NCBI RefSeq assembly: GCF_000497125.1
Contig: NC_090596.1
Coordinates: 992,001-1,056,000 of the forward strand
Reading direction: 5' to 3'
Length of the DNA stretch: 64,000 nt
Origin: Spironucleus salmonicida
Taxonomy: Eukaryota
Shown: in pieces, positions 8,981-46,700 of the stretch
Layout of the letters: every line of letters begins with the position of its first letter
Numbering within the stretch: position 1 is the first letter of the stretch
Program-made: the position numbers and the translations under genes
Notes under the pieces: generated by a model
What the model saw: only the letters and a program-made list of their open reading frames with translations
The model's database searches: none
What the model was told of the DNA's origin: nothing

Positions 8981-11900
8981 AAAATTCGTGTTCTCACTGG
9001 AAAATTCGTGTTCTCAAAGTAGTAAATTCGTGTTCTTAAGTAGTAAATTCGTGTTCTCAAAGTAGTAAATTCGTGTTCTTAAGTAGTAAATTCGTGTTCT
9101 CAAAGTAGTAAATTCGTGTTCTCAAAGTAGTAAATTCGTGTTCTTAAGTAGTAAATTCGTGTTCTCAAAGTAGTAAATTCGTGTTCTCAAAGTAGTAAAT
9201 TCGTGTTCTTAAGTAGTAAATTCGTGTTCTTAAGTAGTAAATTCGTGTTCTCAAAGTAGTAAATTCGTGTTCTTAAAGTAGTAAATTCGTGTTCTCAAAG
9301 TAGTAAATTCGTGTTCTTAAGTAGTAAATTCGTGTTCTCAAAGTAGTAAATTCGTGTTCTTAAGTAGTAAATTCGTGTTCTTAAGTAGTAAATTCGTGTT
9401 CTTAAAGTAGTAAATTCGTGTTCTCAAAGTAGTAAATTCGTGTTCTTAAGTAGTAAATTCGTGTTCTCAAAGTAGTAAATTCGTGTTCTTAAGTAGTAAA
9501 TTCGTGTTCTTAAGTAGTAAATTCGTGTTCTTAAGTAGTAAATTCGTGTTCTCAAAGTAGTAAATTCGTGTTCTTAAAGTAGTAAATTCGTGTTCTCAAA
9601 GTAGTAAATTCGTGTTCTTAAGTAGTAAATTCGTGTTCTCAAAGTAGTAAATTCGTGTTCTTAAAGTAGTAAATTCGTGTTCTCAAAGTAGTAAATTCGT
9701 GTTCTTAAGTAGTAAATTCGTGTTCTCAAAGTAGTAAATTCGTGTTCTTAAGTAGTAAATTCGTGTTCTCAAAGTAGTAAATTCGTGTTCTCAAAGTAGT
9801 AAATTCGTGTTCTTAAGTAGTAAATTCGTGTTCTCAAAGTAGTAAATTCGTGTTCTCAAAGTAGTAAATTCGTGTTCTTAAGTAGTAAATTCGTGTTCTC
9901 AAAGTAGTAAATTCGTGTTCTTAAGTAGTAAATTCGTGTTCTTAAGTAGTAAATTCGTGTTCTCAAAGTAGTAAATTCGTGTTCTTAAGTAGTAAATTCG
10001 TGTTCTCAAAGTAGTAAATTCGTGTTCTTAAGTAGTAAATTCGTGTTCTTAAGTAGTAAATTCGTGTTCTTAAGTAGTAAATTCGTGTTCTCAAAGTAGT
10101 AAATTCGTGTTCTTAAAGTAGTAAATTCGTGTTCTTAAGTAGTAAATTCGTGTTCTCAAAGTAGTAAATTCGTGTTCTCACTGGAAAATTCGTGTTCTCA
10201 AAGTAGTAAATTCGTGTTCTCAAAGTAGTAAATTCGTGTTCTCAAAGTAGTAAATTCGTGTTCTTAAGTAGTAAATTCGTGTTCTTAAGTAGTAAATTCG
10301 TGTTCTCAAAGTAGTAAATTCGTGTTCTTAAGTAGTAAATTCGTGTTCTCAAAGTAGTAAATTCGTGTTCTTAAGTAGTAAATTCGTGTTCTCAAAGTAG
10401 TAAATTCGTGTTCTCAAAGTAGTAAATTCGTGTTCTTAAAGTAGTAAATTCGTGTTCTCACTGGAAAATTCGTGTTCTCAAAGTAGTAAATTCGTGTTCT
10501 CAAAGTAGTAAATTCGTGTTCTCAAAGTAGTAAATTCGTGTTCTTAAGTAGTAAATTCGTGTTCTTAAGTAGTAAATTCGTGTTCTTAAAGTAGTAAATT
10601 CGTGTTCTTAAGTAGTAAATTCGTGTTCTCACTGGAAAATTCGTGTTCTCAAAGTAGTAAATTCGTGTTCTCAAAGTAGTAAATTCGTGTTCTTAAGTAG
10701 TAAATTCGTGTTCTTAAGTAGTAAATTCGTGTTCTCAAAGTAGTAAATTCGTGTTCTTAAGTAGTAAATTCGTGTTCTTAAAGTAGTAAATTCGTGTTCT
10801 TAAGTAGTAAATTCGTGTTCTCAAAGTAGTAAATTCGTGTTCTCAAAGTAGTAAATTCGTGTTCTTAAGTAGTAAATTCGTGTTCTCAAAGTAGTAAATT
10901 CGTGTTCTTAAGTAGTAAATTCGTGTTCTCAAAGTAGTAAATTCGTGTTCTTAAAGTAGTAAATTCGTGTTCTCAAAGTAGTAAATTCGTGTTCTTAAGT
11001 AGTAAATTCGTGTTCTCAAAGTAGTAAATTCGTGTTCTTAAGTAGTAAATTCGTGTTCTCAAAGTAGTAAATTCGTGTTCTTAAAGTAGTAAATTCGTGT
11101 TCTCAAAGTAGTAAATTCGTGTTCTTAAAGTAGTAAATTCGTGTTCTCAAAGTAGTAAATTCGTGTTCTTAAGTAGTAAATTCGTGTTCTCAAAGTAGTA
11201 AATTCGTGTTCTTAAAGTAGTAAATTCGTGTTCTCAAAGTAGTAAATTCGTGTTCTTAAAGTAGTAAATTCGTGTTCTTAAAGTAGTAAATTCGTGTTCT
11301 TAAAGTAGTAAATTCGTGTTCTTAAAGTAGTAAATTCGTGTTCTCAAAGTAGTAAATTCGTGTTCTTAAGTAGTAAATTCGTGTTCTCACTGGAAAATTC
11401 GTGTTCTCAAAGTAGTAAATTCGTGTTCTTAAGTAGTAAATTCGTGTTCTCAAAGTAGTAAATTCGTGTTCTCAAAGTAGTAAATTCGTGTTCTCAAAGT
11501 AGTAAATTCGTGTTCTTAAGTAGTAAATTCGTGTTCTCAAAGTAGTAAATTCGTGTTCTCAAAGTAGTAAATTCGTGTTCTCAAAGTAGTAAATTCGTGT
11601 TCTTAAGTAGTAAATTCGTGTTCTCAAAGTAGTAAATTCGTGTTCTCAAAGTAGTAAATTCGTGTTCTCAAAGTAGTAAATTCGTGTTCTTAAGTAGTAA
11701 ATTCGTGTTCTTAAGTAGTAAATTCGTGTTCTCAAAGTAGTAAATTCGTGTTCTTAAAGTAGTAAATTCGTGTTCTCAAAGTAGTAAATTCGTGTTCTTA
11801 AGTAGTAAATTCGTGTTCTCAAAGTAGTAAATTCGTGTTCTCACTGGAAAATTCGTGTTCTCAAAGTAGTAAATTCGTGTTCTCAAAGTAGTAAATTCGT

Positions 11901-13360
11901 GTTCTTAAGTAGTAAATTCGTGTTCTCAAAGTAGTAAATTCGTGTTCTCAAAGTAGTAAATTCGTGTTCTTAAGTAGTAAATTCGTGTTCTCAAAGTAGT
12001 AAATTCGTGTTCTCAAAGTAGTAAATTCGTGTTCTTAAGTAGTAAATTCGTGTTCTTAAGTAGTAAATTCGTGTTCTCAAAGTAGTAAATTCGTGTTCTT
12101 AAAGTAGTAAATTCGTGTTCTCAAAGTAGTAAATTCGTGTTCTTAAGTAGTAAATTCGTGTTCTCAAAGTAGTAAATTCGTGTTCTTAAGTAGTAAATTC
12201 GTGTTCTCAAAGTAGTAAATTCGTGTTCTTAAAGTAGTAAATTCGTGTTCTCAAAGTAGTAAATTCGTGTTCTTAAGTAGTAAATTCGTGTTCTCAAAGT
12301 AGTAAATTCGTGTTCTTAAGTAGTAAATTCGTGTTCTCAAAGTAGTAAATTCGTGTTCTCACTGGAAAATTCGTGTTCTCAAAGTAGTAAATTCGTGTTC
12401 TCAAAGTAGTAAATTCGTGTTCTTAAGTAGTAAATTCGTGTTCTCAAAGTAGTAAATTCGTGTTCTCAAAGTAGTAAATTCGTGTTCTTAAGTAGTAAAT
12501 TCGTGTTCTCAAAGTAGTAAATTCGTGTTCTCAAAGTAGTAAATTCGTGTTCTTAAGTAGTAAATTCGTGTTCTTAAGTAGTAAATTCGTGTTCTCAAAG
12601 TAGTAAATTCGTGTTCTCAAAGTAGTAAATTCGTGTTCTTAAGTAGTAAATTCGTGTTCTCAAAGTAGTAAATTCGTGTTCTCAAAGTAGTAAATTCGTG
12701 TTCTTAAGTAGTAAATTCGTGTTCTCAAAGTAGTAAATTCGTGTTCTCAAAGTAGTAAATTCGTGTTCTCAAAGTAGTAAATTCGTGTTCTCAAAGTAGT
12801 AAATTCGTGTTCTCAAAGTAGTAAATTCGTGTTCTTAAGTAGTAAATTCGTGTTCTCAAAGTAGTAAATTCGTGTTCTCAAAGTAGTAAATTCGTGTTCT
12901 CAAAGTAGTAAATTCGTGTTCTTAAGTAGTAAATTCGTGTTCTCAAAGTAGTAAATTCGTGTTCTCAAAGTAGTAAATTCGTGTTCTCAAAGTAGTAAAT
13001 TCGTGTTCTCAAAGTAGTAAATTCGTGTTCTTAAGTAGTAAATTCGTGTTCTCAAAGTAGTAAATTCGTGTTCTCAAAGTAGTAAATTCGTGTTCTTAAG
13101 TAGTAAATTCGTGTTCTCAAAGTAGTAAATTCGTGTTCTCAAAGTAGTAAATTCGTGTTCTCAAAGTAGTAAATTCGTGTTCTTAAAGTAGTAAATTCGT
13201 GTTCTCAAAGTAGTAAATTCGTGTTCTCAAAGTAGTAAATTCGTGTTCTTAAGTAGTAAATTCGTGTTCTCAAAGTAGTAAATTCGTGTTCTCAAAGTAG
13301 TAAATTCGTGTTCTCAAAGTAGTAAATTCGTGTTCTTAAAGTAGTAAATTCGTGTTCTCA
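8981..13360. repeat. Tandem minisatellite, about 4.4 kb, roughly 200 units of 20-22 bp, core AAATTCGTGTTCT
   Basis: Variant units: ...CTCAAAGTAGT (22), ...CTTAAGTAGT (21), ...CTTAAAGTAGT (22), ...CTCACTGGA (20). No unique spacers. Confidence 0.99.
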
Positions 13361-13545
13361 AGATACTAATTTCACGCTCTCAAGATACTAATTTCACGCT
13401 CTCAAGATACTAATTTCACGCTCTCAAGATACTAATTTCACGCTCTCAAGATACTAATTTCACGCTCTCAAGATACTAATTTCACGCTCTCAAGATACTA
13501 ATTTCACGCTCTCAAGATACTAATTTCACGCTCTCAAGATACTAA
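13357..13545. repeat. Second tandem repeat, 8 full units plus 1 partial of 22-bp CTCAAGATACTAATTTCACGCT
   Basis: Directly abuts the main array and aligns to its unit with about 7 substitutions. Confidence 0.97.
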
Positions 13546-22694: not shown

Positions 22695-24323
22695 ATGCAG
22701 CTGGTCGTGGCAACGCTGACGACGGAGTTCATCTACACGAAGTACCAGACCAACCTCACGAACTGCTACTCCACGCAGACCACCATACTCTACAACCGGA
22801 ACATCAACCGCATCGTGGTCACCCTCGCCTCCGAGAACAACACGCAGTGCGCCGTCTTCCCGCAGGGCGTCGAGGCGCAGCTGGCCTTCCAGAAGTCTGG
22901 TATCCCCATCCAGCGCATCCAGGTCGCGAACTTCTCCTACGCCAACACCACGGAGCTCGTGTTCGAGGGCGTCCCGGACATCGCCTCCGAGGAGTTCGTG
23001 GTGCTCAACGTGTACTCCTACGGCTACATCACGGAGCGCAGCATCTTCATCTTCCAGGAGCAGAAGTCCTCGCTCACGCAGTGCTTCGAGCCCTCCTCCA
23101 CCGTGAACATCCACGAGACCAAGCTCATCGTCACCATGCACTCCACCAAGCTCTGCACCAACCAGTTTGACACGATAACGGATGGGGCAACGCCGCCTGT
23201 AACTATCGGGGAGCTGACCTCGGCGACGCTGAACGTCCAGGGGTCTATCTTCAGCCTAGAAGTCAAAACCTTCCAAGACGATTACAAGAAAGGTGAGAAG
23301 CTGACCCTGGAAGTAACCCTCACCGGACCCCAATCCGAGCAGCTGCTGCTGATTGTCGCCCCCAACGCCACCGTGACCTTCGAGTCGCTCCAGGGCGGCG
23401 CGGTCGTCACGTTCGACCACAACATCGGCGAGGTCACCAGCACGGGGATCGTAGTTGGCGACGACACCTTCTGGAACCCCGCGCAGAAGCCGCAGCTGGG
23501 CCTGTTTTAGGGCATCTACATGCTCAGAATGTAGTATAGTCCGAACATTGCGAACCTCTAAACGGACATCGAAAAACTCAAATTCGACAACATTATGTAC
23601 AGAATCACAGGATTATCCCCAAATTCGAGGAATGCGTAATAAATTACTATACAGACGACAGTTTTCGACGAAAATCTCCGTTTCATCGCCTTTGCGTGCA
23701 ATCAAGGCCGCAAACTAGAAAGATAGCTTTGTATGGACTTCTACAACGTCGCCAGCACCCCAGGTATATCAACTTCGCTCTATCTCGATATTATCTTCCA
23801 GCTCGGATCGCAGTACGTCCACATCGAGAAATAGAACGTGGAGATTTAAGTCAAACAGATTTCTGCATCAGTCGTGAGCGTAGGGCATAAAGAAGCCTAC
23901 ATTTAGGTTATGTCAAAAAGCCACTTCCCGATTCCACCGAATTCGATGCTAAAGGTGAAATTCACCGTTTTGTAAAATTCGAATTCAGCTCCCTTTGAGG
24001 ATCCAGCTCTAACATTTGAAGTCAGTCAAGCTGTAAGCACTATTCTAGCTCCGATCCGTTTTGCCTGCAACGAAAAGTGCATGACGCTGATGAGTAGAGT
24101 CCAGAGCTACGACGACGCGTTTTACCAGCTGGAGCTTAGCTTGCTACCTGGGGTAATCTTTGGAGACCTCATTTTCGAGGACGACTACAGGGTAGTTTAG
24201 GGCGTTGTGATGGGCATTTCTCTACTGGTAATAGCCATCCTGATCGTAACCAGCATCATAGGGATCGTTTTGCTCATGAAGCAGATGAAGAAGCAGAGCA
24301 AGAGGAAGGCCAAGAAGCTGTGA
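22695..24323 (+). CDS. Type-I membrane protein family, copy 2, 542 aa
   Basis: Paralogue of 2881-4509, same length, C-terminal TM plus KRKAKKL. Confidence 0.9.
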
Positions 24324-24536
24324 TACTATTTTTTCAATAAATTTATTTTCATATATTTTAGGAAGGGTGTGAAATATTATTGATAGTTGATACACTTAAT
24401 TAATACATCTATATTAATGTAAAAACAAAAAACATATAATACGTCAAAAAATAACAATTAATTCCATTACTAAACATAAGATATATTTTTATTTATTAAT
24501 ATTATTCAAATAAAATACATCAAACCAAATTTATAA

Positions 24537-26165
24537 ATGCAGCTGGTCGTGGCAACGCTGACGACGGAGTTCATCTACACGAAGTACCAGACCAACCTCA
24601 CGAACTGCTACTCCACGCAGACCACCATACTCTACAACCGGAACATCAACCGCATCGTGGTCACCCTCGCCTCCGAGAACAACACGCAGTGCGCCGTCTT
24701 CCCGCAGGGCGTCGAGGCGCAGCTGGCCTTCCAGAAGTCTGGTATCCCCATCCAGCGCATCCAGGTCGCGAACTTCTCCTACGCCAACACCACGGAGCTC
24801 GTGTTCGAGGGCGTCCCGGACATCGCCTCCGAGGAGTTCGTGGTGCTCAACGTGTACTCCTACGGCTACATCACGGAGCGCAGCATCTTCATCTTCCAGG
24901 AGCAGAAGTCCTCGCTCACGCAGTGCTTCGAGCCCTCCTCCACCGTGAACATCCACGAGACCAAGCTCATCGTCACCATGCACTCCACCAAGCTCTGCAC
25001 CAACCAGTTTGACACGATAACGGATGGGGCAACGCCGCCTGTAACTATCGGGGAGCTGACCTCGGCGACGCTGAACGTCCAGGGGTCTATCTTCAGCCTA
25101 GAAGTCAAAACCTTCCAAGACGATTACAAGAAAGGTGAGAAGCTGACCCTGGAAGTAACCCTCACCGGACCCCAATCCGAGCAGCTGCTGCTGATTGTCG
25201 CCCCCAACGCCACCGTGACCTTCGAGTCGCTCCAGGGCGGCGCGGTCGTCACGTTCGACCACAACATCGGCGAGGTCACCAGCACGGGGTTCGTATCGGG
25301 AACCGACACCTTCTGGAACCCAGCGCAGAAGCCCCAGCTGGGCCTGTTTTAGGGCATCTACATGCTCAGAATGTAGTATAGTCCGAACATTGCGAACCTC
25401 TAAACGGACATCGAAAAACTCAAATTTGACAACATCATGTACCGGATTTCCGGAATAGCCCCAAATGCTAGTAATGCGCAGTAAGTAACGATCTCGACAA
25501 GCACTTTTGACAGAAATATTAGGTTTCTGTCGTTCACGTGCAACCAGGGTCGTGAGCTGGAGAGAAAACTCTGTCTGGACTTCTACGACATCGCAAACAC
25601 CCCAGATATATCAACGTCGATCTATCTTGATATTATCTTCCAGCTCGGATCGCAGTACGTCCACATCGAGAAGCAGAGTGTGGAGATTCAAAATAAGGAA
25701 GTCTCCGCGGTGGTGACCAGCTTAGGCTACAAGCAAGCCAAAATCCAGGTTTTTTCTACAGTCGCGTTTAATATTACACCTAATTCTGTTCTGAATATCA
25801 AGTTCACGGTTTTCTAGAACTCTGATCCCACTCCATTCGATGACACAAAGTTATCTTTCGAGGTTCAACAAAAGGTCAACACTCTCAGAGAGCCAATAGG
25901 CTTCCCCTGCGATGTGAAATGCATCATGCTCATTAAGCGTGTTTAGAGCAACCCGGAAGCGTTTTACGAACTGGAGCTTAGCCTGCTGCCTGGGGTAATC
26001 TTTGCAAATTTCATTTTCGAGGACGACTACAGGGTAGTTTAGGGCGTTGTGATGGGCATTTCTCTGCTGGTAATAGCCATCCTGGTCGTAACCAGCATCA
26101 TAGGGATCGTTTTGCTCATGAAGCAGATGAAGAAGCAGAGCAAGAGGAAGGCCAAGAAGCTCTGA
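24537..26165 (+). CDS. Type-I membrane protein family, copy 3, 542 aa
   Basis: Tandem to copy 2, same architecture. Confidence 0.9.
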
Positions 26166-26185
26166 GTGATCGGGTTCGTACGCTG

Positions 26186-26500
26186 TCAGTCGAAGAGGAT
26201 GTCCTCCAGGTCGATGGTTCCGCGTTGTGCGCTGGTGCTGAAGGCGTGCAGCAGCTGGCGCGGCGGTGCCGTCACGGCCACGGAGGGCCGTCTGGTGGCA
26301 GGGTGGAGCAGCTACTAGGGAGTCGGGGGCCGCTGGCTGGGAAGCGGCTGGCGGCTGTCCCGCTGCGCCCGGAGCTGCGCCAGGTAGTCCGCCTTGACGG
26401 GTCGCGGGGCTGGCTGGGGGCGCCGGGGCTCGAGCTGCTGGGCGGAGGCGGTCTGGCGGCCGCGGAAGGCATTGCGCAGCGTGACGGGGCAGACGTGCAT
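26186..26500 (-). CDS. Small Pro/Arg/Gln-rich hypothetical protein, 104 aa
   Basis: Code-6 ORF MHVCPVTLRN...IDLEDILFD, GC-rich, preceded by a short TATATATT element. Confidence 0.6.
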
Positions 26501-26535
26501 TTTCGCGGGTACGGTAATATATAGTAGCAGGTCGG

Positions 26536-27654
26536 TCACTCGCTCTTCTTGGCCTTCTTGACCGCGGCCTTGGCGGGCTCGGCCTTCTTCGGCTCGGGGT
26601 CGGACTTCTCGGCGGGGGCTGCCTCGGCCGCGGCGGAGCAGCACTTGACGGCGCACACGGCGAGGGGCACGGCGACGAGGAGGCCGGCGACGAGCGTGAG
26701 GGCGCCCACGATCAGGGCCTGCTGGAGCTGGCTGTACTGGACCACCCAGCCCATGAACTCCTGGTACCTGCCGCGGAGCTCGGCCCTGGCCTTGGCGGGG
26801 GAGCCGGCGACGGGCGCCACGAGGCCCTTGCGGACCTGGTCCACGAAGGGGAGGAAGCCGGCGAAGTCCGCGACCTCGGCGGCGTACTTGGTAGTGCCGT
26901 CCATGACGAGCGCGCAGGGGAGCACGGTGCAGTTGAAGTCCTTGATGAAGGAGTCCCACTTGCCGCCGTCCACGTGCGCGTAGTTGAAGTCCCCGGCGGC
27001 GGTCTCGACGGCCTCCACCACGTCCCTGACGTTCTCCCCGGAGGCGTGCGCGTACATGGCGAGCTTCCTGAGACTGATGTCCCTGTAGTTGTCGGGCCCG
27101 AGGGCCGGCAGCAGGCCGTGCTTCACGCTCAGAATCCATTTTCTGATAGTTTCACCATCAAATTTTCCTTAGAAAATAACTTCTCTGTCTTTACCCTTAA
27201 AAACAAGCTTATTCGCACCTTTTTTAACTTCAATTTTAACTTTTCCTTTTACTGCTTCAAAGAGCTTTTATTCTCTGCTAAGTTACTCGCTGAACCAGAT
27301 AAATTTATCACCAGTCTCTTCTTTTCCTTCAATAAGTACATCTCCTTGCATAGCTTCCATAAAATTGATCATGGCTTCAGCATTACGCTCACCATCATAA
27401 TCAAAAGTATTTCCTCCATAGAAAAACTTAAGTGCTGGGTAACCTGATACTCCATATTTTCCACAGACTTCACTGTTTTCAGTACAGTCGATTTCGACAA
27501 TATCGTATTTAGATAGTGTAGAAAGTCTTTCATACTCTGGAGCAAGAGCCTTACAGTGACCACACCATGGAGCAAAAAACTTGACAAATTGAGTTTTTTC
27601 TGGTTCAAATGTGCTTGTTGTTTGAGATAGCACTTCAGCCAAAATATATAGCAT
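26536..27654 (-). CDS. Membrane-anchored protein disulfide isomerase (TMX3-like layout), 372 aa
   Basis: Two track ORFs join in one code-6 frame: short signal peptide, thioredoxin domain FVKFFAPWCGHCK, C-terminal TM and ...KKAKKSE (KKXX ER retrieval). Confidence 0.9.
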
Positions 27655-31387: not shown

Positions 31388-31717
31388 ATGGGATGTGGAG
31401 GATCATTTATCGAAGAGTACGAAGCAGTGGCAAAAGACGCACAAAGGGAGAAACTACCGCCCTGGATGCGCGAACCATTACAGAAGTCTACAGAGGGTGT
31501 GCAGCTCTATCTGCAGATCCAGGAGGAGGAGTTCATCGATTTTGACATTCTAGAGGCAATCGGAAAGCTGGACACCGACATGCGGGACTCGGGCCGCTCA
31601 GCGATCTGGAACCCCGGCAAGGGCACGCAGAACTTCGATACGCAGTCATACGAGAAGGTCGACAAGAACCTCTTCAACATCCAGGAGAACCTCTCCGATG
31701 AGCAGGGAACGGAGTGA
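31388..31717 (+). CDS. Small protein, 109 aa, MGCGGS start (possible dual acylation)
   Basis: Track ORF ending GAG TGA. Confidence 0.8.
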   Translation: MGCGGSFIEEYEAVAKDAQREKLPPWMREPLQKSTEGVQLYLQIQEEEFIDFDILEAIGKLDTDMRDSGRSAIWNPGKGTQNFDTQSYEKVDKNLFNIQENLSDEQGTE

Positions 31718-31723
31718 AAGCGA

Positions 31724-33028
31724 TCACTCGGGAGCGCCACGCGCCACACCGGTAAGTTCCCTGCTCCGCTGGCACGTGTGCACGCTGGAGGCCAGGATCA
31801 CCGCCGTTGACTCTGCGACGTCCGCGAGCTCCTTTCTGAACTCCTGAATTTCGACTCCTTTCTAATACAAATTCTCGTAAAATGCGTCGATTTCGGCCTT
31901 GGGGCGAGGAGTGCTGGTTTGGAGCGGGTTTGCTGCGGGCTAATTTTTCTTGTTTTTCTAACCGTTCTAGGCGTCTCTGGACCGCTTTTGGAGCGCGAGC
32001 TGTGCGGCGTTTTCGTTGATTTTCGGATTGTAGCTGAACTCCTCTTCTGGCAGATCTGAGGGCGCTGCGAATTCGCGTCTGGGGAGCAGGTAGCTTAGCT
32101 CAATCGGGACTCGGTCCTCAACCGTTTTGCTGTTTATTTGGGGCTGGAAGCTGTGCGTGAGCGTTTTACTTTGCTTCACTTTTGCGCTGAGCTTCGCATT
32201 GGCCTCCTTCAGCATCAGGAACTGCCGCTGGACGACTTTTTCGGTGACCTCGAGCTCCTTTGCTAAGGTGGTGATTTTCGGCTTAAAGTCATAGTCCTCG
32301 TTGTACTTTTCGGCTAATTTGCATACTTTCGCCTTTTGAAAGTCGCTATAACCGGTTGGGTTCTGAACGAAATTCTACTACCTTTTTTAGGCAAGAATCT
32401 CTGATTTTTAGTTGATTTGTGGCTAGAAGTTATCCATCTGGACTACGACTTTCTTTTCTGGTTTCGGTCTTTCGGTAAATTAATAATCGTTTATTTTTGG
32501 AGAAAATAGGTATTTCTCTTCTTATACTTGCTTAGGCTGGGATTTTTGAATGCTGAACTCCTTGACTTCCGTGGATGTAATCAAATCAATTTTTTTTTAT
32601 TTCTATAAGTCTAGGATTCTCTATTTCACTGCAACTTGTTGAGGGGTGGCAAAAACGACCTTAGGATATAATTCAGCTCCATTTTCGATTTAAGATAGAA
32701 CTTGTTTCATAAAATTTTAAAGCAATTCCTCAGGAAGCTGAAATTATTCTAAATAATTCATCGCGATTTATGTGTGCACTTGCCTAATGGTAACCGCACC
32801 ATTATATAGGAGAGGGTCTAAAACTTTCGGTAATTTGAACGTGTGCCTTGTAGACTCTACATCCAAACCTGCACCAGGTGAATATTACTAAGGGATAAGT
32901 AAGTTAATAGTATGAAATTGAGGCTCTGTAATATTTATTTTCTATTATTTCTAAGTAGAGTTCTGTAGAAGTGCAATAGCTCTTTGTTTTCTAGACTGTG
33001 ATAAAGTAGATGAAAGTGACGAATTCAT
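31724..33028 (-). CDS. Hypothetical protein, 434 aa, repeated FxPxIN/T motifs (possibly cytoskeletal)
   Basis: Code-6 ORF with FSPKIN, FQPQIN twice, FKPKIT and YNPKIN. Ends GAG TGA, 6 bp from the convergent 31717 stop. Confidence 0.8.
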
Positions 33029-33727: not shown

Positions 33728-34339
33728 ATGGACGAAAATTAATTATAAGAATTCAAAAACAAAACCCTAGAATTTGCATTAATAGCATCGATTCCAATTT
33801 GTTACTATCCATTTATAACGAAAACCTACCAAATGAGCCTTTACCAGCTTTCTGAATTTTTGCAAAAATCATACAAAACAACATTCTCATACATCCAAAT
33901 AGCTTTAGAGATTTTTCTCTCTTTTTCCGATTTCGTCCTCTTCAAAATCTCATTCCAGTCATCCCGAAATCAGTATTTATGCATTTTCTACCATTCTTCC
34001 ATATTCATTTACCTGCTTTACGGCTTTGCGCGGGACATCGAGAACCCTACGATTTCGCCCGTGGTCGATATTTTTAACAAAACAATGCTCTTTGGAGCTC
34101 AGTTTATCACATATAAGCTCTTCCAAAGCTACACGTCCAATTAACCGGATTTCCAGTCAAATTTCTAGTTCGGAAAGCACCTGCAGAGCCAAATCCAGCA
34201 AGTATTCGTCTGCCCCGTTGCGCTAGGCCTCTGCCTCCTGAACTTTCACCAGCTGTGCAAATTCACGAATCTGGTCCCCCAGGAGGCGCAGAACGGAGAA
34301 TTCGACAACGCAATCCTCATCAACTACCAGTTCTAGTGA
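33728..34339 (+). CDS. Hypothetical, possibly membrane, protein, 203 aa
   Basis: Code-6 ORF ending TAG TGA, with hydrophobic stretches. Confidence 0.7.
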
Positions 34340-34348
34340 GCAAACTCT

Positions 34349-35431
34349 TCACTGCGCGAACTCCGTTTCGCACATGCCTTTCCTGCTCTCTGCGTCGAGT
34401 TTGAAGGGCGCGAATCCGGCGAAAACGGCCGCAATCGGGCACGCGAACTCCCCGCACGCCGCCAGTTTGACGGGCCGGTTTTGGTAGAATACCCTGAGCA
34501 CATCGCCGGCCAAAAGCTCGAAAACGATGTCGCTGGCGAACCTCGGCAGCTCGCACTCCCAGGCCCTGTTCGTTAGCGCAGACATCAGCGGGGCGATAAC
34601 GGTATCGTGCGAGGAGAAAATACCGAATTTGAGCCCGGATTGCATGAAGGATTCAATATCGTCGAAAATTGGGCCGATTGCCGCTTTCGTGTGGCTAGTG
34701 TAGAGCGTGTCGTTTTGGTTGCAGAAGAGGCCGTTCCAGAGCTTGTTCGTTTCGGCCTATGCCATGCGGAGCTCGTTGTCAGTGGCTGGGTGCGACTAGT
34801 TCATCGAAATCGACGACTAGAACGAGTCGTAGAACATGTCCCAATTTAGAGTGGTATTCGTCTTTGCCCTGAGCGCATTCAATTTCTTCAGATCGAAGCG
34901 CGTCTGGCTCTCGATGTACTGTTTGAATCCGATACGCCAGTTGCAAAGGTAGTGTGGGAACGTGCCGTCCAGCTGCGAATTTGGAGTGTAAACGGTCACG
35001 TTTTGGGGCACTGGGTACATCCCCTCTAGCTGGCCAGCGAGCGAGGCACGCGTTCTTGGAGTATCAGAAGACCGCAAATAGACGGTTGAGGGGTCATATT
35101 TTGAGCCGATTAGGTGGGAATATGCGAGTCTCCATCTTTTTCCCAGCTCTTTGTGCTGGTCAAAGCCGAGCTACACTAAATCACCTGGTTCACAGTTTTT
35201 AGATGGCTAATTGATCTTATGCTGGTGCTTTCCGTAGGAGATTATTGGCTACAGGCAAATAGGGTCCTATTCGCCAGGCAGCGGGTGGAATGAGGTTCTC
35301 GCACCATGGCGTGAAATGACAAGAACTTTTTGCACATCTGAAATTTAGTATTTTAGGTAGCTTTACACTAGAAATAATAGCGTTGTGAAGGAGACAATGA
35401 TTAAAGTTAAATATTTAACTTTTACTGCCAT
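34349..35431 (-). CDS. Histidine acid phosphatase (branch 2), 360 aa, N-terminal signal or anchor
   Basis: RHGART active-site motif, GDLV/GLDQHKELG segment and SSHDTVI acid motif in one code-6 frame. Confidence 0.9.
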
Positions 35432-36735: not shown

Positions 36736-37377
36736 ATGTCACCTGGTAATGCAGTCTAAATTATAAAAATTATAGAACAACTTATTTTCATTCATAATTA
36801 AATTACATATTCGTTATAAGTAACAAAGCATCCTCCATAATTGAAACATGTATAGATATCAATTAATCGCCAACTTGTAACTCTCCTAGAGTGTATAAAG
36901 ACAAAATCTAATTATGGATTTTTTGCAGAGCTTTCTCTACTGTTTGACTAATTTTATCAAGGGACAAAAAGTCTTAATGCATTCTTGAATTACCTTCCTG
37001 AAATTATGTCCAACATCGAAATACTTCAAGTATATGACCTCAATAAACACTCAAACCTATTTATTTTTTATAGTAAAATATTTAAGTAGAAAACTTTTAA
37101 TTTCCAGCTTTTCCATTGTGAATAAGAAGAACGAAAAGTTTTCTAGAAAGAAAAAATAAAAGATTTTAATGTTGCTACAATAAAAGTAAAAGAGCGAGAA
37201 ATCTAATCTTTAAAATATACTTAACCTAAAACTAATGTTCGGTCTATTAAAACAGTATCTGGTCTTCGAAAAATATGCCAAAAACAACAATAGTTAATTG
37301 ATAAGTTAAAAGAAAGTGGCCAGTTTATCGATGAAATCAAGCTTTTAGAATTCGAAATTAGGTAGCTAGGTATTTGA
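36736..37377 (+). CDS. Hypothetical protein, 213 aa
   Basis: Code-6 ORF MSPGNAVQII...EIRQLGI. Confidence 0.7.
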
Positions 37378-37425
37378 AATGAGAGTGGTTTTTATTTTAT
37401 CTTATTTGTCGCCTTTCATACCTAA

Positions 37426-38028
37426 TGGATTCTGAGCGTGAAGCACGGCCTGCTGCCGGCCCTCGGGCCCGACAACTACCGGGACATCAGTCTCAGGAAG
37501 CTCGCCATGTACGCGCACGCCTCCGGGGAGAACGTCAGGGACGTGGTGGAGGCCGTCGAGACCGCCGCCGGGGACTTCAACTACGCGCACGTGGACGGCG
37601 GCAAGTGGGACTCCTTCATCAAGGACTTCAACTGCACCGTGCTCCCCTGCGCGCTCGTCATGGACGGCACTACCAAGTACGCCGCCGAGGTCGCGGACTT
37701 CGCCGGCTTCCTCCCCTTCGTGGACCAGGTCCGCAAGGGCCTCGTGGCGCCCGTCGCCGGCTCCCCCGCCAAGGCCAGGGCCGAGCTCCGCGGCAGGTAC
37801 CAGGAGTTCATGGGCTGGGTGGTCCAGTACAGCCAGCTCCAGCAGGCCCTGATCGTGGGCGCCCTCACGCTCGTCGCCGGCCTCCTCGTCGCCGTGCCCC
37901 TCGCCGTGTGCGCCGTCAAGTGCTGCTCCGCCGCGGCCGAGGCAGCCCCCGCCGAGAAGTCCGACCCCGAGCCGAAGAAGGCCGAGCCCGCCAAGGCCGC
38001 GGTCAAGAAGGCCAAGAAGAGCGAGTGA
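37426..38028 (+). pseudogene. 5'-truncated duplicate of the PDI gene (no signal peptide or CGHC domain)
   Basis: Protein sequence identical to the PDI C-terminal half. In-frame TGA at 37375 upstream; first in-frame ATG at 37507. Confidence 0.8.
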
Positions 38029-38063
38029 CCGACCTGCTACTATATATTACCGTACCCGCGAAA

Positions 38064-38109
38064 ATGCACGTCTGCCCCGTCACGCCTGGAGGACATCCTC
38101 TTCGACTGA
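38064..38109 (+). pseudogene. Internally deleted remnant of the 26186-26500 ORF
   Basis: ATGCACGTCTGCCCCGTCACG is joined directly to CCTGGAGGACATCCTCTTCGACTGA; 269 bp are missing. Confidence 0.85.
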
Positions 38110-38129
38110 CAGCGTACGACCCCGATCAC

Positions 38130-39758
38130 TCAGAGCTTCTTGGCCTTCCTCTTGCTCTGCTTCTTCATCTGCTTCATGAGCAAAACGATCCCTATGATGC
38201 TGGTTACGACCAGGATGGCTATTACCAGCAGAGAAATGCCCATCACAACGCCCTAAACTACCCTGTAGTCGTCCTCGAAAATGAAATTTGCAAAGATTAC
38301 CCCAGGCAGCAGGCTAAGCTCCAGTTCGTAAAACGCTTCCGGGTTGCTCTAAACACGCTTAATGAGCATGATGCATTTCACATCGCAGGGGAAGCCTATT
38401 GGCTCTCTGAGAGTGTTGACCTTTTGTTGAACCTCGAAAGATAACTTTGTGTCATCGAATGGAGTGGGATCAGAGTTCTAGAAAACCGTGAACTTGATAT
38501 TCAGAACAGAATTAGGTGTAATATTAAACGCGACTGTAGAAAAAACCTGGATTTTGGCTTGCTTGTAGCCTAAGCTGGTCACCACCGCGGAGACTTCCTT
38601 ATTTTGAATCTCCACACTCTATTTCTCGATGTGGACGTACTGCGATCCGAGCTGGAAGATAATATCAAGATAGATCGACGTTGATATATCTGGGGTGTTT
38701 GCGATGTCGTAGAAGTCCAGACAGAGTTTTCTCTCCAGCTCACGACCCTGGTTGCACGTGAACGACAGAAACCTAATATTTCTGTCAAAAGTGCTTGTCG
38801 AGATCGTTACTTACTGCGCATTACTAGCATTTGGGGCCAATCCGGAAATGCGGTACATAATGTTGTCAAATTTTAGTTTATCGATTTACGGTTAGAGCTT
38901 TTCAATGTTCGGACTATACTACATTCTGAGCATGTAGATGCCCTAAAACAGGCCCAGCTGCGGCTTCTGCGCTGGGTTCCAGAAGGTGTCGGTTCCCGAT
39001 ACGATCCCCGTGCTGGTGACCTCGCCGATGTTGTGGTCGAACGTGACGACCGCGCCGCCCTGGAGCGACTCGAAGGTCACGGTGGCGTTGGGGGCGACAA
39101 TCAGCAGCAGCTGCTCGGATTGGGCTGTGCTGAGCTTTACTTCCAGGGTCAGCTTCGCACCGTTCTTGTAGTCGTCTTGGAAGGTTTTGACTTCTAGGCT
39201 GAAGATAGACCCCTGAACGTTCAGCGTCGCCGAGGTCAGCTCCCCGATAGTTACAGGCGGCGTTGCCCCATCCGTTATCGTGTCAAACTGGTTGGTGCAG
39301 AGCTTGGTGGAGTGCATGGTGACGATGAGCTTGGTCTCGTGGATGTTCACGGTGGAGGAGGGCTCGAAGCACTGCGTGAGCGAGGACTTCTGCTCCTGGA
39401 AGATGAAGATGCTGCGCTCCGTGATGTAGCCGTAGGAGTACACGTTGAGCACCACGAACTCCTCGGAGGCGATGTCCGGGACGCCCTCGAACACGAGCTC
39501 CGTGGTGTTGGCGTAGGAGAAGTTCGCGACCTGGATGCGCTGGATGGGGATACCAGACTTCTGGAAGGCCAGCTGCGCCTCGACGCCCTGCGGGAAGACG
39601 GCGCACTGCGTGTTGTTCTCGGAGGCGAGGGTGACCACGATGCGGTTGATGTTCCGGTTGTAGAGTATGGTGGTCTGCGTGGAGTAGCAGTTCGTGAGGT
39701 TAGTCTGGTACTTCGTGTAGATGAACTCCGTCGTCAGCGTTGCCACGACCAGTTGCAT
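38130..39758 (-). CDS. Type-I membrane protein family, copy 4, 542 aa
   Basis: Inverted near-copy of copy 3 with patch differences. Confidence 0.9.
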
Positions 39759-39971
39759 TTATAAATTTGGTTTGATGTTTTTTATTTGAATAATATTAAT
39801 AAATAAAAATATATCTTATGTTTAGTAATGGAATTAATTGTTATTTTTTGATGTATTATATGTTTTTTGTTTTTACATTACTATAGATGTATTAATTAAG
39901 TGTATTAACTATCAATAATATTTCACACCCTTCCTAAAATATATGAAAATAAATTTATTGAAAAAATAGTA

Positions 39972-41600
39972 TCACAGCTTCTTGGCCTTTCTTCTTTTCT
40001 ATTACTTGATGCTCTTTAAGAGTTTGATTATTTAAATAATACTTGTAACAATTAAAAATACAATAATAATAAGGCTGAATCCAATAATGATACCTTACAT
40101 TACTCTTACATCATCAAGATATAAAAATGTTCCAAAAATTAAACCAGGCAGAAGATTTATATCAAGCTAATAATATACATACGATTACGATTAAATTATT
40201 TCTAATAGATTGTGGCATCTTTTATCACAATCAAATACTATATCTTCCTATAGTGAGTCTACTTATTATGAAATCTCAAGTTGTAAAGACGGATCTGAGA
40301 ATGGTAATGGATTACTATTTTATAAAATTGTTATATTTATTTTTAATAATGAATTTGGCGCAATATTATATTTTTTTAAAGAGTATATCTATATAGTTGC
40401 ATCATCATTACCTATACTCAATGTTGCTTATAAAATCTCTTTATTTTAAATTTCGGCTACTTATTTTTCAATATGTACATATTTTGAACCTAGTTAAAAG
40501 ATAATATCTATATAAATTGTAGTAACTATATTTATATCTGCAGCAATGTTATAAAACTTTTCACAAGCATCTCGCTCTAATTTACGACCTTCATCGCAAC
40601 TAAAATTCATGAATCGAAGATTTGGATCAAATTTAGCACCATGAATAGTTAACTACTAAGTTTTTGTTACATTAGGTGATATCCCAGTAAGACGGAACAT
40701 AATATTATCAAATTTTATTTTATTTATTTCCGGTTCTAAAATACTAATTTATGGATTAAAATTAAATTTCAGCATATAAAGACTCTAGAACAAACCTATC
40801 TATGGATTTTAATTAATATCCCAAAAACTTTCAGAACCTACAGTTAAACCTGTTGTTGTAACAATACCAACATCATGTTCAAAATCTACGTCAGTACCGC
40901 CTTAAAACGATGCAAATGTTATAGTAGCAGTAGGAGCTACTAATAGCAAGAGATGCTCTGATTATTGTATTGTCAGAGAAACTTCTAGAGTTAATGTATT
41001 GCCGTCTTTATATTCATCCTAAAAAGTTTTAACATTTAATCCAAAAATAGATCCTTCGATATTTAAAGATGCATAAGTTAATTCACCGATAACTACAGGC
41101 GGCGTTCCCCCGTCCGTTATCGTGTCAAACTGGTTGGTGCAGAGCTTGGTGGAGTTCATGGTGACGATGAGCTTGTCTACGTGGATGTTCACGGTGGAGG
41201 AGGTCTCGAAGCACTGCGTGAGCGAGGACTTCTGCTCCTGGAAGATGAAGATGCTGCGCTCCGTGATGTAGCCGTAGGAGTACACGTTGAGCACCACGAA
41301 CTCCTCGGAGGCGATGTCCGGGACGCCCTCGAACACGAGCTCCGTGGTGTTGGCGTAGGAGAAGTTCGCGACCTGGATGCGCTGGATGGGGATCCCGGAG
41401 GTCTGGAAGGCCAGCTGCGCCTCGACGCCCTGCGGGAAGACGGCGCACTGCGTGTTGTTCTCGGAGGCGAGGGTGACCACGATGCGGTTGATGTTCCGGT
41501 TGTAGAGTATGGTGGTCTGCGTGGAGTAGCAGTTCGTGAGGTTAGTCTGGTACTTCGTGTAGATGAACTCCGTCGTCAGCGTTGCCACGACCAGTTGCAT
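39972..41600 (-). CDS. Type-I membrane protein family, copy 5, 542 aa (GC-rich 5' third, AT-rich divergent remainder)
   Basis: Same length and C-terminal KAKKL. The first ~510 nt are near-identical to the other copies, the rest is diverged. Confidence 0.88.
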
Positions 41601-42720: not shown

Positions 42721-43385
42721 TTTATTATATATTCATATCAATATATAATAATATGAATAAATTAATTATTATATGGAAAGGAGATTGTGATGGAAGAAAT
42801 AGTAAATAAGCCGAGTATGAGATTTCTATAAATAGACAAGGAAGGTACTTGTGTGGAAATTGGTCCGAATATATGATATAAGTAGTTACAGAGCAGTGGT
42901 CATGATCAGATAATTACTAGAGTTATTGTGGTAAATACTGTTCAGAAAGAAAAAAACGGATTTTGTCTACTAGTTCCGTAGAAACTGTTATTATACATAG
43001 TTTAAATATATATTAATCAACTTATTTAATAATAAACTATCTTGTAATTGTACAATTTCATTATTATGATATTAAAATGTATTATTGCCATATAATTAAA
43101 ATAATGTAATGAATCCGCAATTTAACAATAAATGTAAATTTATATAATAATAAATCCCAATTTTAAAATTAAGGAGAGTTTAATGTCAATAGGCTATATA
43201 CACTAGACTAATCCATTTTAAAAATTAAAATGAAGTATAATAACTGTAAAAAGAAGATTGTTAATTAATTGTTAGGTCTTTTATTAAACAAAAATTGTGA
43301 AATTTGATTATGAATTTGTCATAGAATATGATACGAACTAAAATGAATACTTATTTCTTACTCTAAAATCTGTAGAAACTACAAA

Positions 43386-43607
43386 ATGGAGGAGCTTGCA
43401 GAACAGTACGAGGCGTTGTTATCAAGGCCGGTGGTGACAGTGGGGTCGCTGTTGGCAGAATTGCACGTGCGGACGGATGAGCTGAAGCGTATGCGGCGGC
43501 AGGTGAGCACTCTCACGCACAACGTGGAGCAGATCAAGAAAATGCAGCAGATTATCTTCGGTAACTAGGTAAGGACTTTTAGAAACGTTTAAAGCACTAT
43601 CAAGTGA
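43386..43607 (+). CDS. Small coiled-coil hypothetical protein, 73 aa
   Basis: Track ORF extended through TAG/TAA to AAG TGA. Degenerate copies at 45447 and 47800. Confidence 0.55.
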
Positions 43608-45446
43608 ATAAGTTAATTATAGTTAGCAAAACTCGACACGGATCAAGGGCTAGGGGTCAGTGTAATCGCTGAATGGACCCTCTACAGTTTTGCGCAAAAG
43701 TTGCAAACATATTTGCTAACCTGAATGCAGCAAATGTGTTGAGTACTGGGGCGTAGAATATCTTCGGGGTTCAATTAGGGATATATATCAAGCGAGCAAA
43801 TTTGAAATATAGGTATATTACATTAAACTGCTTCTAAAAACAGAAAATTGCATAGCAAGGATATTTTTCATATATTAATCGTATAATATCACAACTTTGC
43901 GTGATAATATCCTGTTACTGGTCCAAACTGCACATATTATAACCGCACACAAACTATGGCGCACATGGCACTTAAGCTTCGCTATACTAGAATGAGTTTC
44001 ATCATTTAAAAATATATGCTCGCTATATAAAGTTCTACAATAGATCATATTATTGGTAAGCTGGTCAATTTAGTTCTAAACTACTTTCTCTATTAAATAA
44101 GAACACATTGTATAGTATTTTTTTATATAATAAACATACTATTTATAAGATAATGAATACAAGGATATTATTATCACTCATTATTAACCGATCATATTAA
44201 TAATCCATCTATTACATCTCCTAGCAATATTTAATAATAATTAATATATTTAATATTAATATTTCTGAAGTCGTAATAAATCCCATAAACTTAATATTAT
44301 TATAATATTCACTTATCTAATATTAATATATTAGTGTACCCAGAATATAATGATGTATTCGAGTTCAAACTCATGCTTAACTTAAATATTCTTTCAAAGT
44401 AATTCTGCCTACACAACTAATTACAACATTCAAATGTTTTCTAAAGGCTAATAGAGCATCTCTTAAGCGGTTATTATCAAGAACATAACTATTTATACTA
44501 GTTTAAAATGCATACTATATTTTAAGATAATGCTATAATTTATAAATTTTTTACTTATCATTTTACTATTCATGAGTTATTCTCAGACACCTCAATCATT
44601 GAATGCATTCTCATCCAGAAGTTATGTTTTATAACTTATGTTTCACCTTTTATATAATAGTATCACCTAGTGAAATTTAGTATGTAATCTATCATAGCAC
44701 TTCTTAATATGTTTCATCTTAAGTATATAAAGTTCTAATTCTTCTATTAGATATAAGTTTTACTATATAGTTAACATTCAAAATGTCATTTATTATTATC
44801 ACAAATATCTTTTTAATGAATAAACAAAATCTTTACGGTGTAAACTATAACAGTAAAGAGACTATTGGTGACTATACTGTATAACCAATCAAACCTTTAC
44901 ACAAATATATCATCTAACTAGTAGTATACTGCACATTTATCTTATTTATGAATTTACTTGCTTGTTACTCTCCTTTAATGAATATACTGCCGTGTTTAAG
45001 TCGTTACTACACTTTACGACTTATATGTTTAGTAAATCAATGGTACATATTTATACAACCAAAAATATAAGTGAATGAAAGAAATATTGTAATAACCTTA
45101 TATTTGCTTGTTAATATCACATGTTGTATGCGATCCATAAGAAGATCTAGGTAATCTAGGGCATACCGCGGTGTTTCAGTGCTACCGGTGCTCTGCATTT
45201 TGACGGATCGATCTGCACGAATAACTGCTGAAATATCGCAACTTTCATTCGAGATTCTACACATTGCAGAATAATACCCTACGATTTCTATCCGAATATC
45301 CGGATTCATTATAAGATGAGATATGCCAGCTCTGAACTCGTAGCCTGTATAGTGCAATAAATCAATTCTACAGTAAATAATCGCCTTCTCTGTAAATAAA
45401 AGTGAGCATATATTAGAGTGGCCGAAAAATGTGTAACGACTACGAA

Positions 45447-45579
45447 ATGGAGAGGTTGTGGAACAGTACGAGGCGTTGTTTTCAAGGTCGATGGCGGCAG
45501 GTGAGCACTCTCACCCACTACATGGAGCAGATCAAGAAGATACAGCAGATCATCTTCGATTACTAGGTAAGGACTTTCA
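45447..45579 (+). pseudogene. Degenerate, internally deleted copy of the 43386 ORF (mirrored at 47668-47800)
   Basis: GAACAGTACGAGGCGTTGTT and GGCGGCAGGTGAGCACTCTCAC...GAGCAGATCAAGAA match 43386-43580 with about 60 nt missing. Confidence 0.75.
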
Positions 45580-46007
45580 GGAGGGTTACTGCTAGGTTAA
45601 GTCCAAAAGTGGAAGGAAACAATATTTAAAAGGACACTCAAGATTAAAGATTCCTAAAATCATTTAATAATTAGCCAGTTACATTATGAATTTATGGAAT
45701 AGTTAAGGTAATCTTATTTTACAATTATAGTTATTGATTATTCAATGATTTTTTAATATTTGATTTGCACTATCTAAGCACAGAAGAAAATGATAGCGTT
45801 GAATCTTATGCTGAGCTTTTCATCTTAACAGTAAGATATCCTATTTTATGCACAATATGTATTGCTAATAATTTTAAACAGAGGTATCATAATTTTTTGT
45901 GGCAATCTATCAAAATATAGTGAGTCATCAAATTAAAGAGGACTATAAATTTGCTTCATCTTGCTATAAGAGTATATTACGCTAATATAAAATAAAGAAG
46001 ATAACGC

Positions 46008-46184
46008 TCACTGGGCAGAGATAGCAGTAACAGGGCAAACGCCTTCACAGGCACCACAATCGATACAATCGGCAGCAGCTATGCAAGACTTACCATCATC
46101 ATTGAAAGTAATGCAAGCTGCTGGGCAGGCACCGGCGCAGGCTTCGCAACCAATACAAATATCATGATCAACTATACGGGGCAT
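46008..46184 (-). CDS. fdx: 2[4Fe-4S] (clostridial-type) ferredoxin, 58 aa, copy A
   Basis: MPRIVDHDICIGCEACAGACPAACITFNDDGKSCIAAADCIDCGACEGVCPVTAISAQ, with two CxxCxxCxxxCP motifs. Confidence 0.95.
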   Translation of the reverse strand: MPRIVDHDICIGCEACAGACPAACITFNDDGKSCIAAADCIDCGACEGVCPVTAISAQ

Positions 46185-46700
46185 ATTAAAGAAGTGAAAT
46201 ATTGTGGAATGACTAATATATATTTAATTAATATAATATTTATTAAAATAATAAATAAATAAACTAATACGTGAATATTAAATTAAATTATGATTGACGA
46301 TAAAGACTGTGAAACAACGAGTCATCGATAATAATATTATTATATACTAATTTACAATAACTTAAATCCAGTTTGTATACTTTTGGAAGGGACATTATCC
46401 AAACCTTTATCATTATTAATGTTATAGTGCCATAAATACAATGAATACTTAGAAAACATATCGATTTTCTAATTAGAGGGAACTGTAGCTATGATATTGA
46501 AAACTTTGCTACACTTATCTGCGTAGAAATTGAGGTATTTTTTATACTAAACCTAAACCAGAAATTGATAGTTGATGTAGCCTTAAATTAAAAATGATAA
46601 TAATTAAAAATAAAAATAAATTTTTATCTTTTTTATAATAAAGAATTATTCCAATATTGCCCCTAAAGTTAAATACCTTATGACTGCCTTGTAATAAAGA

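What the first reader, a model, noticed from the sequence alone, without database searches (positions are those of the whole stretch)
26536..27654. Abrupt AT-to-GC codon switch inside PDI at the duplication boundary
Seen: the unduplicated 5' half uses AT-rich codons and TAA-Gln (...TTC TAA GGA AAA TTT GAT GGT GAA ACT ATC AGA AAA). From about 27140, the arm boundary, third positions become almost only G/C (CTG AGC GTG AAG CAC GGC CTG CTG CCG GCC CTC) and Gln is CAG. One mRNA should not have two expression-driven codon optima. Inference: GC-biased gene conversion between inverted arms. The still-open truncated copy differs by very few bases, which implies continued homogenisation. Caveat: the duplicated intergenic at 24324-24536 stays AT-rich, so promoter selection or another factor is also needed.
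Basis: partly seen in the sequence, partly recalled or inferred. Interest (0 to 1): 0.7.

Follow-up and report, generated by a model that had tools for sequence, protein, structure and literature searches.

The report
GC step marks duplicated gene half
In a fish parasite whose DNA is mostly A and T, the half of one gene that has a mirror-image twin nearby is written almost entirely in G/C-ending codons, most likely because the twins keep correcting each other with a repair bias towards G and C, a known process that is unusually strong here.

Summary
Real. In the PDI-2 gene (26536-27654, -) of Spironucleus salmonicida, synonymous GC3 jumps from 34/167 to 190/193 at 27132, 8 bp inside the edge (27140) of an inverted duplicate (661/662 identical). 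Public-run contigs support both junctions and one transcript-like contig spans the step. It is a genome-wide rule: the duplicated part is GC-richer in 21 of 26 part-duplicated genes and 5 of 6 held-out ones. Mosaic tracts show conversion; private third-position variants run GC>AT 19:7, favouring a fixation bias over a mutation bias. Best reading: GC-biased non-allelic conversion. A two-copy model needs a 99.6% bias; eight copies per cell (two arms, four alleles) need only about 69% (post hoc). Against: single-copy DNA also reaches GC3 0.7-0.9, some identical arms are AT-rich, and no orthologue DNA was found to polarise. The coarse correlation is in print (PMC9509377) and the scan noted this on eight other pieces of this genome.

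The parts
26536..27654 (-). Protein disulfide isomerase gene (372 aa; thioredoxin domain with CGHC, b-type domain, membrane segment, C-terminal KKAKKSE), intact
   Evidence: the KKAKKSE tail is that of S. salmonicida PDI-2 in PMC3916229; RNA-like contig 26531-27630
27141..27654 (-). Single-copy 5' part of PDI, codons 1-172, GC3s about 0.20
26536..27140 (-). Duplicated 3' part of PDI, codons 173-372, GC3s 0.98; GC1 0.67 and GC2 0.45 against 0.48 and 0.33 in the 5' part
24303..27140 (.). Left arm of the inverted duplication (2838 bp)
   Evidence: DNA contigs of X1 and X4 break at 27140/27111
37424..39992 (.). Right arm (2569 bp; 269 bp shorter, the gap lying in the small ORF)
   Evidence: contigs of X1, X4 and X7 run from the unique flank into the arm
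37424..38028 (+). 5'-truncated PDI copy, open, one synonymous difference from the full gene; upstream DNA shows no remnant of the PDI 5' half
26186..26500 (-). Small 104-aa ORF inside the arm, GC3 0.89; its partner at 38064-38109 lacks 269 bp in the window sequence
   Evidence: the gap is not seen in the listed contigs of X1 and X4
24537..26165 (+). Family gene C (542 aa, no Pfam match), in the left arm; partner D at 38130-39758 (-)
39972..41600 (-). Family gene E: second step in the window, GC3s 157/165 in the part shared with copies A-D, 60/370 beyond; change point 41099-41108, homology edge 41083
22695..24323 (+). Family gene B (copy A lies at 2881-4509); shares conversion tracts with C and others
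24324..24536 (.). Duplicated spacer that stays 16% GC (4 differences from its partner 39759-39971)

Best explanation
The 3' 200 codons of PDI-2 lie in an old inverted duplication whose arms repair each other by gene conversion; where a mismatch pairs G/C with A/T the G/C base tends to win. Over time this drove third positions, some first and second positions and most spacers inside the arm to near saturation, while DNA one codon outside, having no partner, stayed at the AT-rich background. Shown: the step, its match to the edge, its recurrence, mosaic tracts between non-allelic copies. Partly shown: that the bias acts on fixation, not on mutation. Inferred: the age of the arms, the direction of change in PDI, and the amplifier: the cell has two diploid nuclei, so two arms are eight interconverting copies and a per-event bias r compounds as r^(n-1); an ordinary 70:30 bias then gives GC3 0.99 for eight copies and 0.76 for four.
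For: Step 8 bp from the edge. 834-kb sample, 275 called genes: GC3 0.34 with no partner in the sample, rising through 0.39, 0.43, 0.48, 0.63 to 0.81 at 98% or more local identity; 211 of 392 duplicated 50-codon bins exceed 0.9 against 18 of 2000 partnerless bins. Duplicated part GC-richer in 21 of 26 part-duplicated genes (one self-repeat gene of 27 set aside; paralogue pairs are not independent; Wilcoxon p 1.3e-5) and 5 of 6 in 210 kb of mostly fresh sequence, three of them 0.18-0.20 to 0.94-0.99. In 11 genes picked for clear contrast, 14 of 15 edges have the change point within 12 codons, searched over +-70. A partnerless GC3 0.98 block proved to have an inverted twin outside the sample. Family A-D: 70 sites split AB|CD but 9 split AD|BC, all in codons 286-307. 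Private variants in families of 3 or more copies, third positions: 19 GC>AT to 7 AT>GC when isolated (p 0.03), 39 to 11 in all; mutation-only equilibrium predicts equality. 14 of 16 duplicated spacers (both copies counted) are 44-70% GC against medians of 21-28% for 73 unique ones. Both C and G rise at four-fold sites. Gene-level median GC3 0.30, 0.86, 0.94, 0.92 for 0, 1, 2, 3+ partners.
Against: No orthologue DNA, so no substitution in PDI is polarised. Seven of eight GC-rich stretches checked genome-wide have no near-identical partner (GC3 about 0.7-0.9), and about half of all bins with GC3 of 0.6 or more are partnerless in the sample (316 against 318). Four of 171 single-copy genes have a contrast of 0.55 or more (10 of 98 among genes with partners). 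Some arms of 99.9-100% identity are AT-rich (C1:967541-971098 GC3 0.22; C3:403007-403850 0.28; an inner gene of the arm at C1:952994); calling them young is an assumption. Tandem arrays at 8982-13545 (30% GC) and C8:427071 (19%) stay AT-rich. Private variants outside called genes show no bias (14:10 isolated, 49:57 in all), and the held-out blocks had no families of three copies to repeat the test. In the C8 pair the unshared middles are 0.77 and 0.22, which equal decay from a shared GC-rich past does not explain. The eight-copy model is post hoc and assumes that all copies interconvert freely.
Confidence: 0.68

Rival explanations
1. Reverse causation: GC-rich patches arise first by a regional process (as the single-copy patches do), and duplication or lasting conversion is favoured inside them, so homology ends where GC ends.
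For: Single-copy patches of GC3 0.7-0.9 exist. PMC3924832 (passage) reads Drosophila data this way: composition may promote conversion without biasing it.
Against: Single-copy patches are mostly graded and seldom pass 0.9 (18 of 2000 bins, several with a twin found); steps at edges are abrupt and face either way along genes. No decayed PDI 5' half lies beside the right arm. AT-rich DNA duplicates too.
Confidence: 0.12
2. One-off paste: an AT-rich PDI took its 3' half from a close paralogue that was already GC-rich, so the step is a recombination scar and GC did not build up in place.
For: In family E and in the C8 pair an AT-rich copy carries GC-rich tracts identical to a GC-richer paralogue. 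Building GC3 0.9 in place needs about 0.7 neutral substitutions per site even at B 5.3, a long life for a truncated copy with a sharp edge.
Against: It leaves open why the donor was GC-rich; the shared tract is not markedly the AT-rich version in any of the 26 + 6 genes (largest reverse gap 0.79 against 0.92). The protein aligns through the junction without a gap with P0002 and the in-genome paralogues; only two copies exist.
Confidence: 0.1
3. A homology-triggered mutator: paired or repeated DNA is rewritten from A/T to G/C by a dedicated or error-prone process (a mirror image of fungal repeat-induced point mutation, recalled), with unbiased conversion keeping copies alike.
For: Saturation to 0.98 is far beyond the two-copy expectation of 0.37 at a 70:30 bias. 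Per site, private AT>GC variants (7 on 264 columns) outnumber GC>AT (19 on 2512). No bias among private variants outside called genes.
Against: GC>AT private variants exceed AT>GC in number at third positions. Both C and G rise, needing transversions as well as transitions. The eight-copy model reaches 0.99 with no new enzyme.
Confidence: 0.06
4. Selection on codons or mRNA (translation speed, structure) in the 3' half, or an assembly chimera.
For: PMC1805757 section 15 raised selection for high-GC3 genes. The 269-bp gap of the right arm is not seen in the listed contigs, so the window sequence of the arms may not be exact.
Against: Steps follow homology edges at 5', middle or 3' positions; spacers shift too; the truncated copy shares the codons. 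DNA contigs of two runs (one sample, possibly the source) cross both junctions and an RNA-like contig of another study spans the step.
Confidence: 0.04

Closest known systems
GC-biased gene conversion in primate X-chromosome palindromes (PMC8981503; abstract and section 17 read)
   Same: Inverted arms above 99% identity, GC higher in arms than in flanks, also outside genes; bias of about 70% inferred.
   Different: There arms are 46% against 41% GC; here 68% GC in the PDI arm block against 18-30% flanks and GC3 0.98 against 0.20, with the edge inside a gene, arms of 0.3-11 kb, in a binucleate protist; here no outgroup polarisation.
Ectopic gene conversion of Drosophila amylase and Hsp70 pairs (PMC3924832; passages read)
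   Same: Linked inverted paralogues homogenised in tracts; GC higher in tracts than in flanks.
   Different: The review finds no compelling GC bias and coding-only homogenisation; here most duplicated spacers are homogenised and GC-raised, and the effect is near saturation.
GC mosaic of Spironucleus salmonicida (PMC1805757 section 15; PMC2874811 section 7; PMC9509377 parts 1-2 of 3)
   Same: Same species and phenomenon: sharp GC shifts, genes with GC3s near 1, lower in S. barkhanus orthologues; duplicated regions 44.7% against 30.7% GC.
   Different: The 2007 and 2010 texts leave it unexplained; the 2022 text gives the average and names gene conversion only for surface-protein expansion. None of the parts read reports steps inside genes at homology edges or a biased process.
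Mouse Fxy gene across the pseudoautosomal boundary (recalled; the primary paper did not come up)
   Same: One gene with two GC3 regimes split at a recombination boundary.
   Different: There allelic meiotic recombination; here a non-allelic duplicate.

Membership tests
GC-biased non-allelic gene conversion | Near-identical non-allelic copies | tested here: met
   661/662 and 98.2% over 1908 bp; junctions in public-run contigs
GC-biased non-allelic gene conversion | Tract-wise exchange between copies (incongruent tracts) | tested here: met
   9 AD|BC sites in codons 286-307 against 70 AB|CD; shown for the family in the arm, not for PDI itself, which has two copies
GC-biased non-allelic gene conversion | GC excess confined to the homologous stretch | tested here: met
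   exceptions
GC-biased non-allelic gene conversion | Acts on all site classes, non-coding included | tested here: inconclusive
   14 of 16 duplicated spacers raised, GC1/GC2 raised; but 24324-24536 is not, some spacers may hide short genes, and variants outside called genes are unbiased
GC-biased non-allelic gene conversion | Fixation bias, not mutation bias (variant spectrum) | tested here: inconclusive
   19:7 isolated, p 0.03; 39:11 in all; one genome, small numbers, not repeated in held-out DNA
GC-biased non-allelic gene conversion | AT-to-GC excess of substitutions polarised with an outgroup | not testable with these tools
   no orthologue DNA found
GC-biased non-allelic gene conversion | Biased transmission observed in conversion events | not testable with these tools
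   needs lineage or population sequencing
Protein disulfide isomerase, membrane-anchored PDI-2 type | Thioredoxin domain with CGHC, b-type domain, C-terminal di-lysine tail | tested here: met
   PF00085 E 4e-24; PF13848 31.5 bits over cut-off 27; KKAKKSE
Repeat-induced point mutation type mutator (recalled definition) | One class of transition, making copies diverge | tested here: not met
   copies stay alike; C and G both rise at four-fold sites, 0.46 and 0.36 against 0.09 and 0.09

The most novel reading that the evidence does not exclude
The whole GC mosaic of this parasite is a map of how many copies a stretch converts with inside one cell: about 0.2 where conversion is rare, up to about 0.76 in single-copy hot spots (four alleles in two nuclei) and about 0.99 in duplications (eight or more copies), all from one bias near 70:30 compounding as r^(n-1) without need of sex. 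Ploidy would then act as an exponential amplifier of GC-biased conversion, and the single-copy patches and the arms would be one process.
Probability: 0.25. Interest if true: 0.8.

Novelty: new variant of a known kind. Interest (0 to 1): 0.5.

Why it matters
The GC3-near-1 genes of S. salmonicida were called hard to explain by mutation or selection in 2007 and 2010. Genes cut by a homology edge are internal controls (same mRNA, promoter and protein) that tie the extreme class to having a twin, and they can be found by the dozen. If the copy-number model holds, it gives a measurable prediction for polyploid or multinucleate clonal eukaryotes, makes GC3 a rough clock for duplication age here, and warns that codon-bias, amino-acid and gene-transfer inferences in this genome are distorted. 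The mechanism class is known and the coarse correlation is published, which caps the surprise.

Tried and rejected
Orthologue DNA: the word-index search of residues 100-372 returned only the protein itself (1 of 8000 candidates); the HMMER search gave 9 hits, the best other being P0002 (42%, 155 aa); a metagenome scan with P0002 found 112 pattern matches and no relative. Decayed PDI 5' half beside the right arm: tblastn no hit; blastn only short AT-rich matches, best E 0.002. Fusion of unrelated genes: rejected, alignment continuous across the junction. General 3' gradient as the cause: single-copy genes rise only from 0.32 to 0.40 along their length (149 genes), and family E steps the other way. 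My first gene caller picked wrong frames in GC-rich DNA and was replaced; the final calls cover 36-60% of each block, are not an annotation and may favour GC-rich frames. 'No partner' means none in the sample unless a genome search is cited; genome DNA searches miss paralogues near 55-60% identity. No RNA holder was on record; X5 and X7 are guessed to be RNA, and contig depth was not used to rank expression. Literature searches that gave no paper on biased conversion in diplomonad duplications; only open-licence papers are searched, and no supplements were read.

Full report
Organism and gene. The window reads under genetic code 6 and lies at G000:C1:992001-1056000. A PDI paralogue on C9 (L003) is letter for letter the protein P0008, which its sources name as Spironucleus salmonicida. 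The gene in question gives a 372-aa protein with a thioredoxin domain and ends in KKAKKSE, the tail given for the ER-resident PDI-2 of that species in PMC3916229 (passage).

Synonymous GC3 is 34/167 up to codon 174 and 190/193 after; the change point is 27132. Self-alignment puts the edge of an inverted duplicate at 27140: 26479-27140 pairs with 38085-37424 (one synonymous difference) and 24303-26210 with 39992-38085 (34 differences). Only these two copies of the 3' half exist in G000. GC1 and GC2 rise as well, though the domains differ.

It is not an assembly seam. Contigs of DNA runs X1 and X4 (one sample; X1 may be the source of this DNA) break at 27140/27111 and run from the right-hand flank into the arm. 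One contig of X5, guessed to be RNA and from another study, covers 26531-27630 in one piece with one difference; X7 has a poly(A)-like loose end at 26525. One point is unsettled: the right arm is 269 bp shorter, inside a small ORF, but the listed X1 and X4 contigs run through that stretch and no joint is listed (79 pieces were not shown); X4 carries three variants found in neither arm of the window. The gap may be a minor allele or an error. The protein aligns without a break across the junction with P0002 and two paralogues, and no remnant of the 5' half lies beside the right arm.

It is a rule. The window holds a second case: family gene E is 157/165 in the part shared with four siblings and 60/370 beyond. 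In 834 kb from four contigs (275 genes called by my own script) GC3 climbs with local identity to the best partner from 0.34 to 0.81. Among 27 genes only partly duplicated, one self-repeat set aside, 21 of 26 are GC-richer in the shared part. In 11 genes chosen for clear contrast, 14 of 15 edges have the change point within 12 codons (chosen, so not a blind count). In 210 kb examined afterwards (20 kb seen before) 5 of 6 agree, three with steps from about 0.2 to 0.94-0.99; the sixth is 0.79 against 0.92. A block with GC3 0.98 and no partner in the sample had an inverted twin just outside it. Direct copies and an internal tandem repeat behave alike.

Conversion and its bias. Copies A-D of the family split AB|CD at 70 sites and AD|BC at 9, the latter confined to codons 286-307: a conversion tract. 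In families of three or more copies, variants private to one copy run GC>AT 19 to AT>GC 7 at isolated third positions (p 0.03) and 39 to 11 overall; outside called genes 14 to 10 and 49 to 57. If arms were GC-rich through a local mutation bias at equilibrium the two classes would be equal, so this leans to a fixation bias, modestly. The spacer may be a late extension of the arm or a constrained promoter; an AT-rich gene inside another near-identical arm suggests that arms grow in steps. This is inference.

Strength. The odds ratio across the step is 248 (57-1822). With two copies correcting each other the ratio equals the per-event bias, so 99.6% of events would have to favour G/C; a 70:30 bias, the figure of PMC8981503 (abstract), gives only 0.37. 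But diplomonads have two diploid nuclei (PMC9509377). With n freely interconverting copies the ratio is r^(n-1), checked by simulation; eight copies need 69% (64-75%), or 80% if the flank is already biased among its four alleles. At 70:30, four copies give 0.76 and eight 0.99. These match the levels of single-copy patches (dynein 3' end 0.73) and of arms. The fit is post hoc; the partnerless bins show a shoulder at 0.5-0.8 in the first sample but only a tail in the second.

What does not fit. Seven of eight GC-rich stretches searched genome-wide are single-copy (the eighth is), and half of the GC-rich bins have no partner in the sample, so duplication explains the saturated, sharp-edged class and not the whole mosaic. 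Some identical arms and tandem arrays are AT-rich. The C8 pair has unshared middles of 0.77 and 0.22. No substitution in PDI could be polarised; reaching 0.9 in place needs about 0.7 neutral substitutions per site, so a paste from an already GC-rich paralogue remains possible.

What is known. PMC1805757 (passages and section 15) and PMC2874811 (passages and section 7) describe the GC mosaic and leave it unexplained. PMC9509377 (parts 1-2 of 3) reports 44.7% GC in duplicated against 30.7% in other DNA and names gene conversion for surface-protein expansion. PMC8981503 (abstract, section 17) is the nearest worked case, with a 5-point difference. PMC3924832 (passages) offers the reverse-causation reading. 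My searches found no paper on biased conversion at duplication edges in diplomonads. Earlier unchecked notes of this scan report the same pattern on eight other pieces of the genome; I did not examine those loci, and they are no independent support.

Verdict. A real feature and a strong example of a known process: it works like GC-biased non-allelic conversion, and membership is met on three features, inconclusive on two, untestable on two. Interest 0.5; the copy-number amplifier is the part worth testing.

Noticed in passing
window 50300-53000, 31388-32400, 33730-35050; C8:385346-386400, C8:475453-477200: Single-copy, mostly graded GC3 peaks often sit on convergent 3' ends: last 60 codons average 0.52 for 34 convergent genes against 0.40 for 32 co-directional ones (p 0.03; not significant after subtracting the 5' level, p 0.10).
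   Followed up: partly
window 8982-13545: 4.5-kb tandem array of a 22-bp unit, about 200 copies at 93%, with an inverted-looking variant run at 13356-13545; stays 30% GC.
   Followed up: no
window 45148-48099: Near-perfect 2.9-kb palindrome (97%) holding two small ferredoxin-like ORFs (label from the cysteine pattern, no family search), 33% GC; 88-bp pieces recur at 43365-43582.
   Followed up: no
window 2881-4509, 22695-26165, 38130-41600; C2:575007-576756 and 582350-584097: Five copies of a 542-aa membrane-tailed protein with no Pfam match; distant relatives (67%) on C2 form their own inverted pair with GC3 0.96.
   Followed up: partly
window 26632: Both RNA-like runs carry G>T here, absent from both arms of the window and from the X1 and X4 contigs; a third-position GC-to-AT change, strain or allele unknown.
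   Followed up: no
window 37118-37453: A contig of RNA-like run X7 crosses the right junction into the truncated PDI copy; read-through from the upstream ORF is possible, DNA carry-over not excluded.
   Followed up: no
G000:C8:438513-440072 and 448358-449917: Inverted gene pair identical at both ends but about 60% identical in protein over codons 241-449, with GC3 0.77 in one middle and 0.22 in the other; no third copy found.
   Followed up: partly
G000:C1:1068876-1098852: Three near-identical 6.3-kb blocks within a 10.8-kb inverted pair, GC3 0.95.
   Followed up: no
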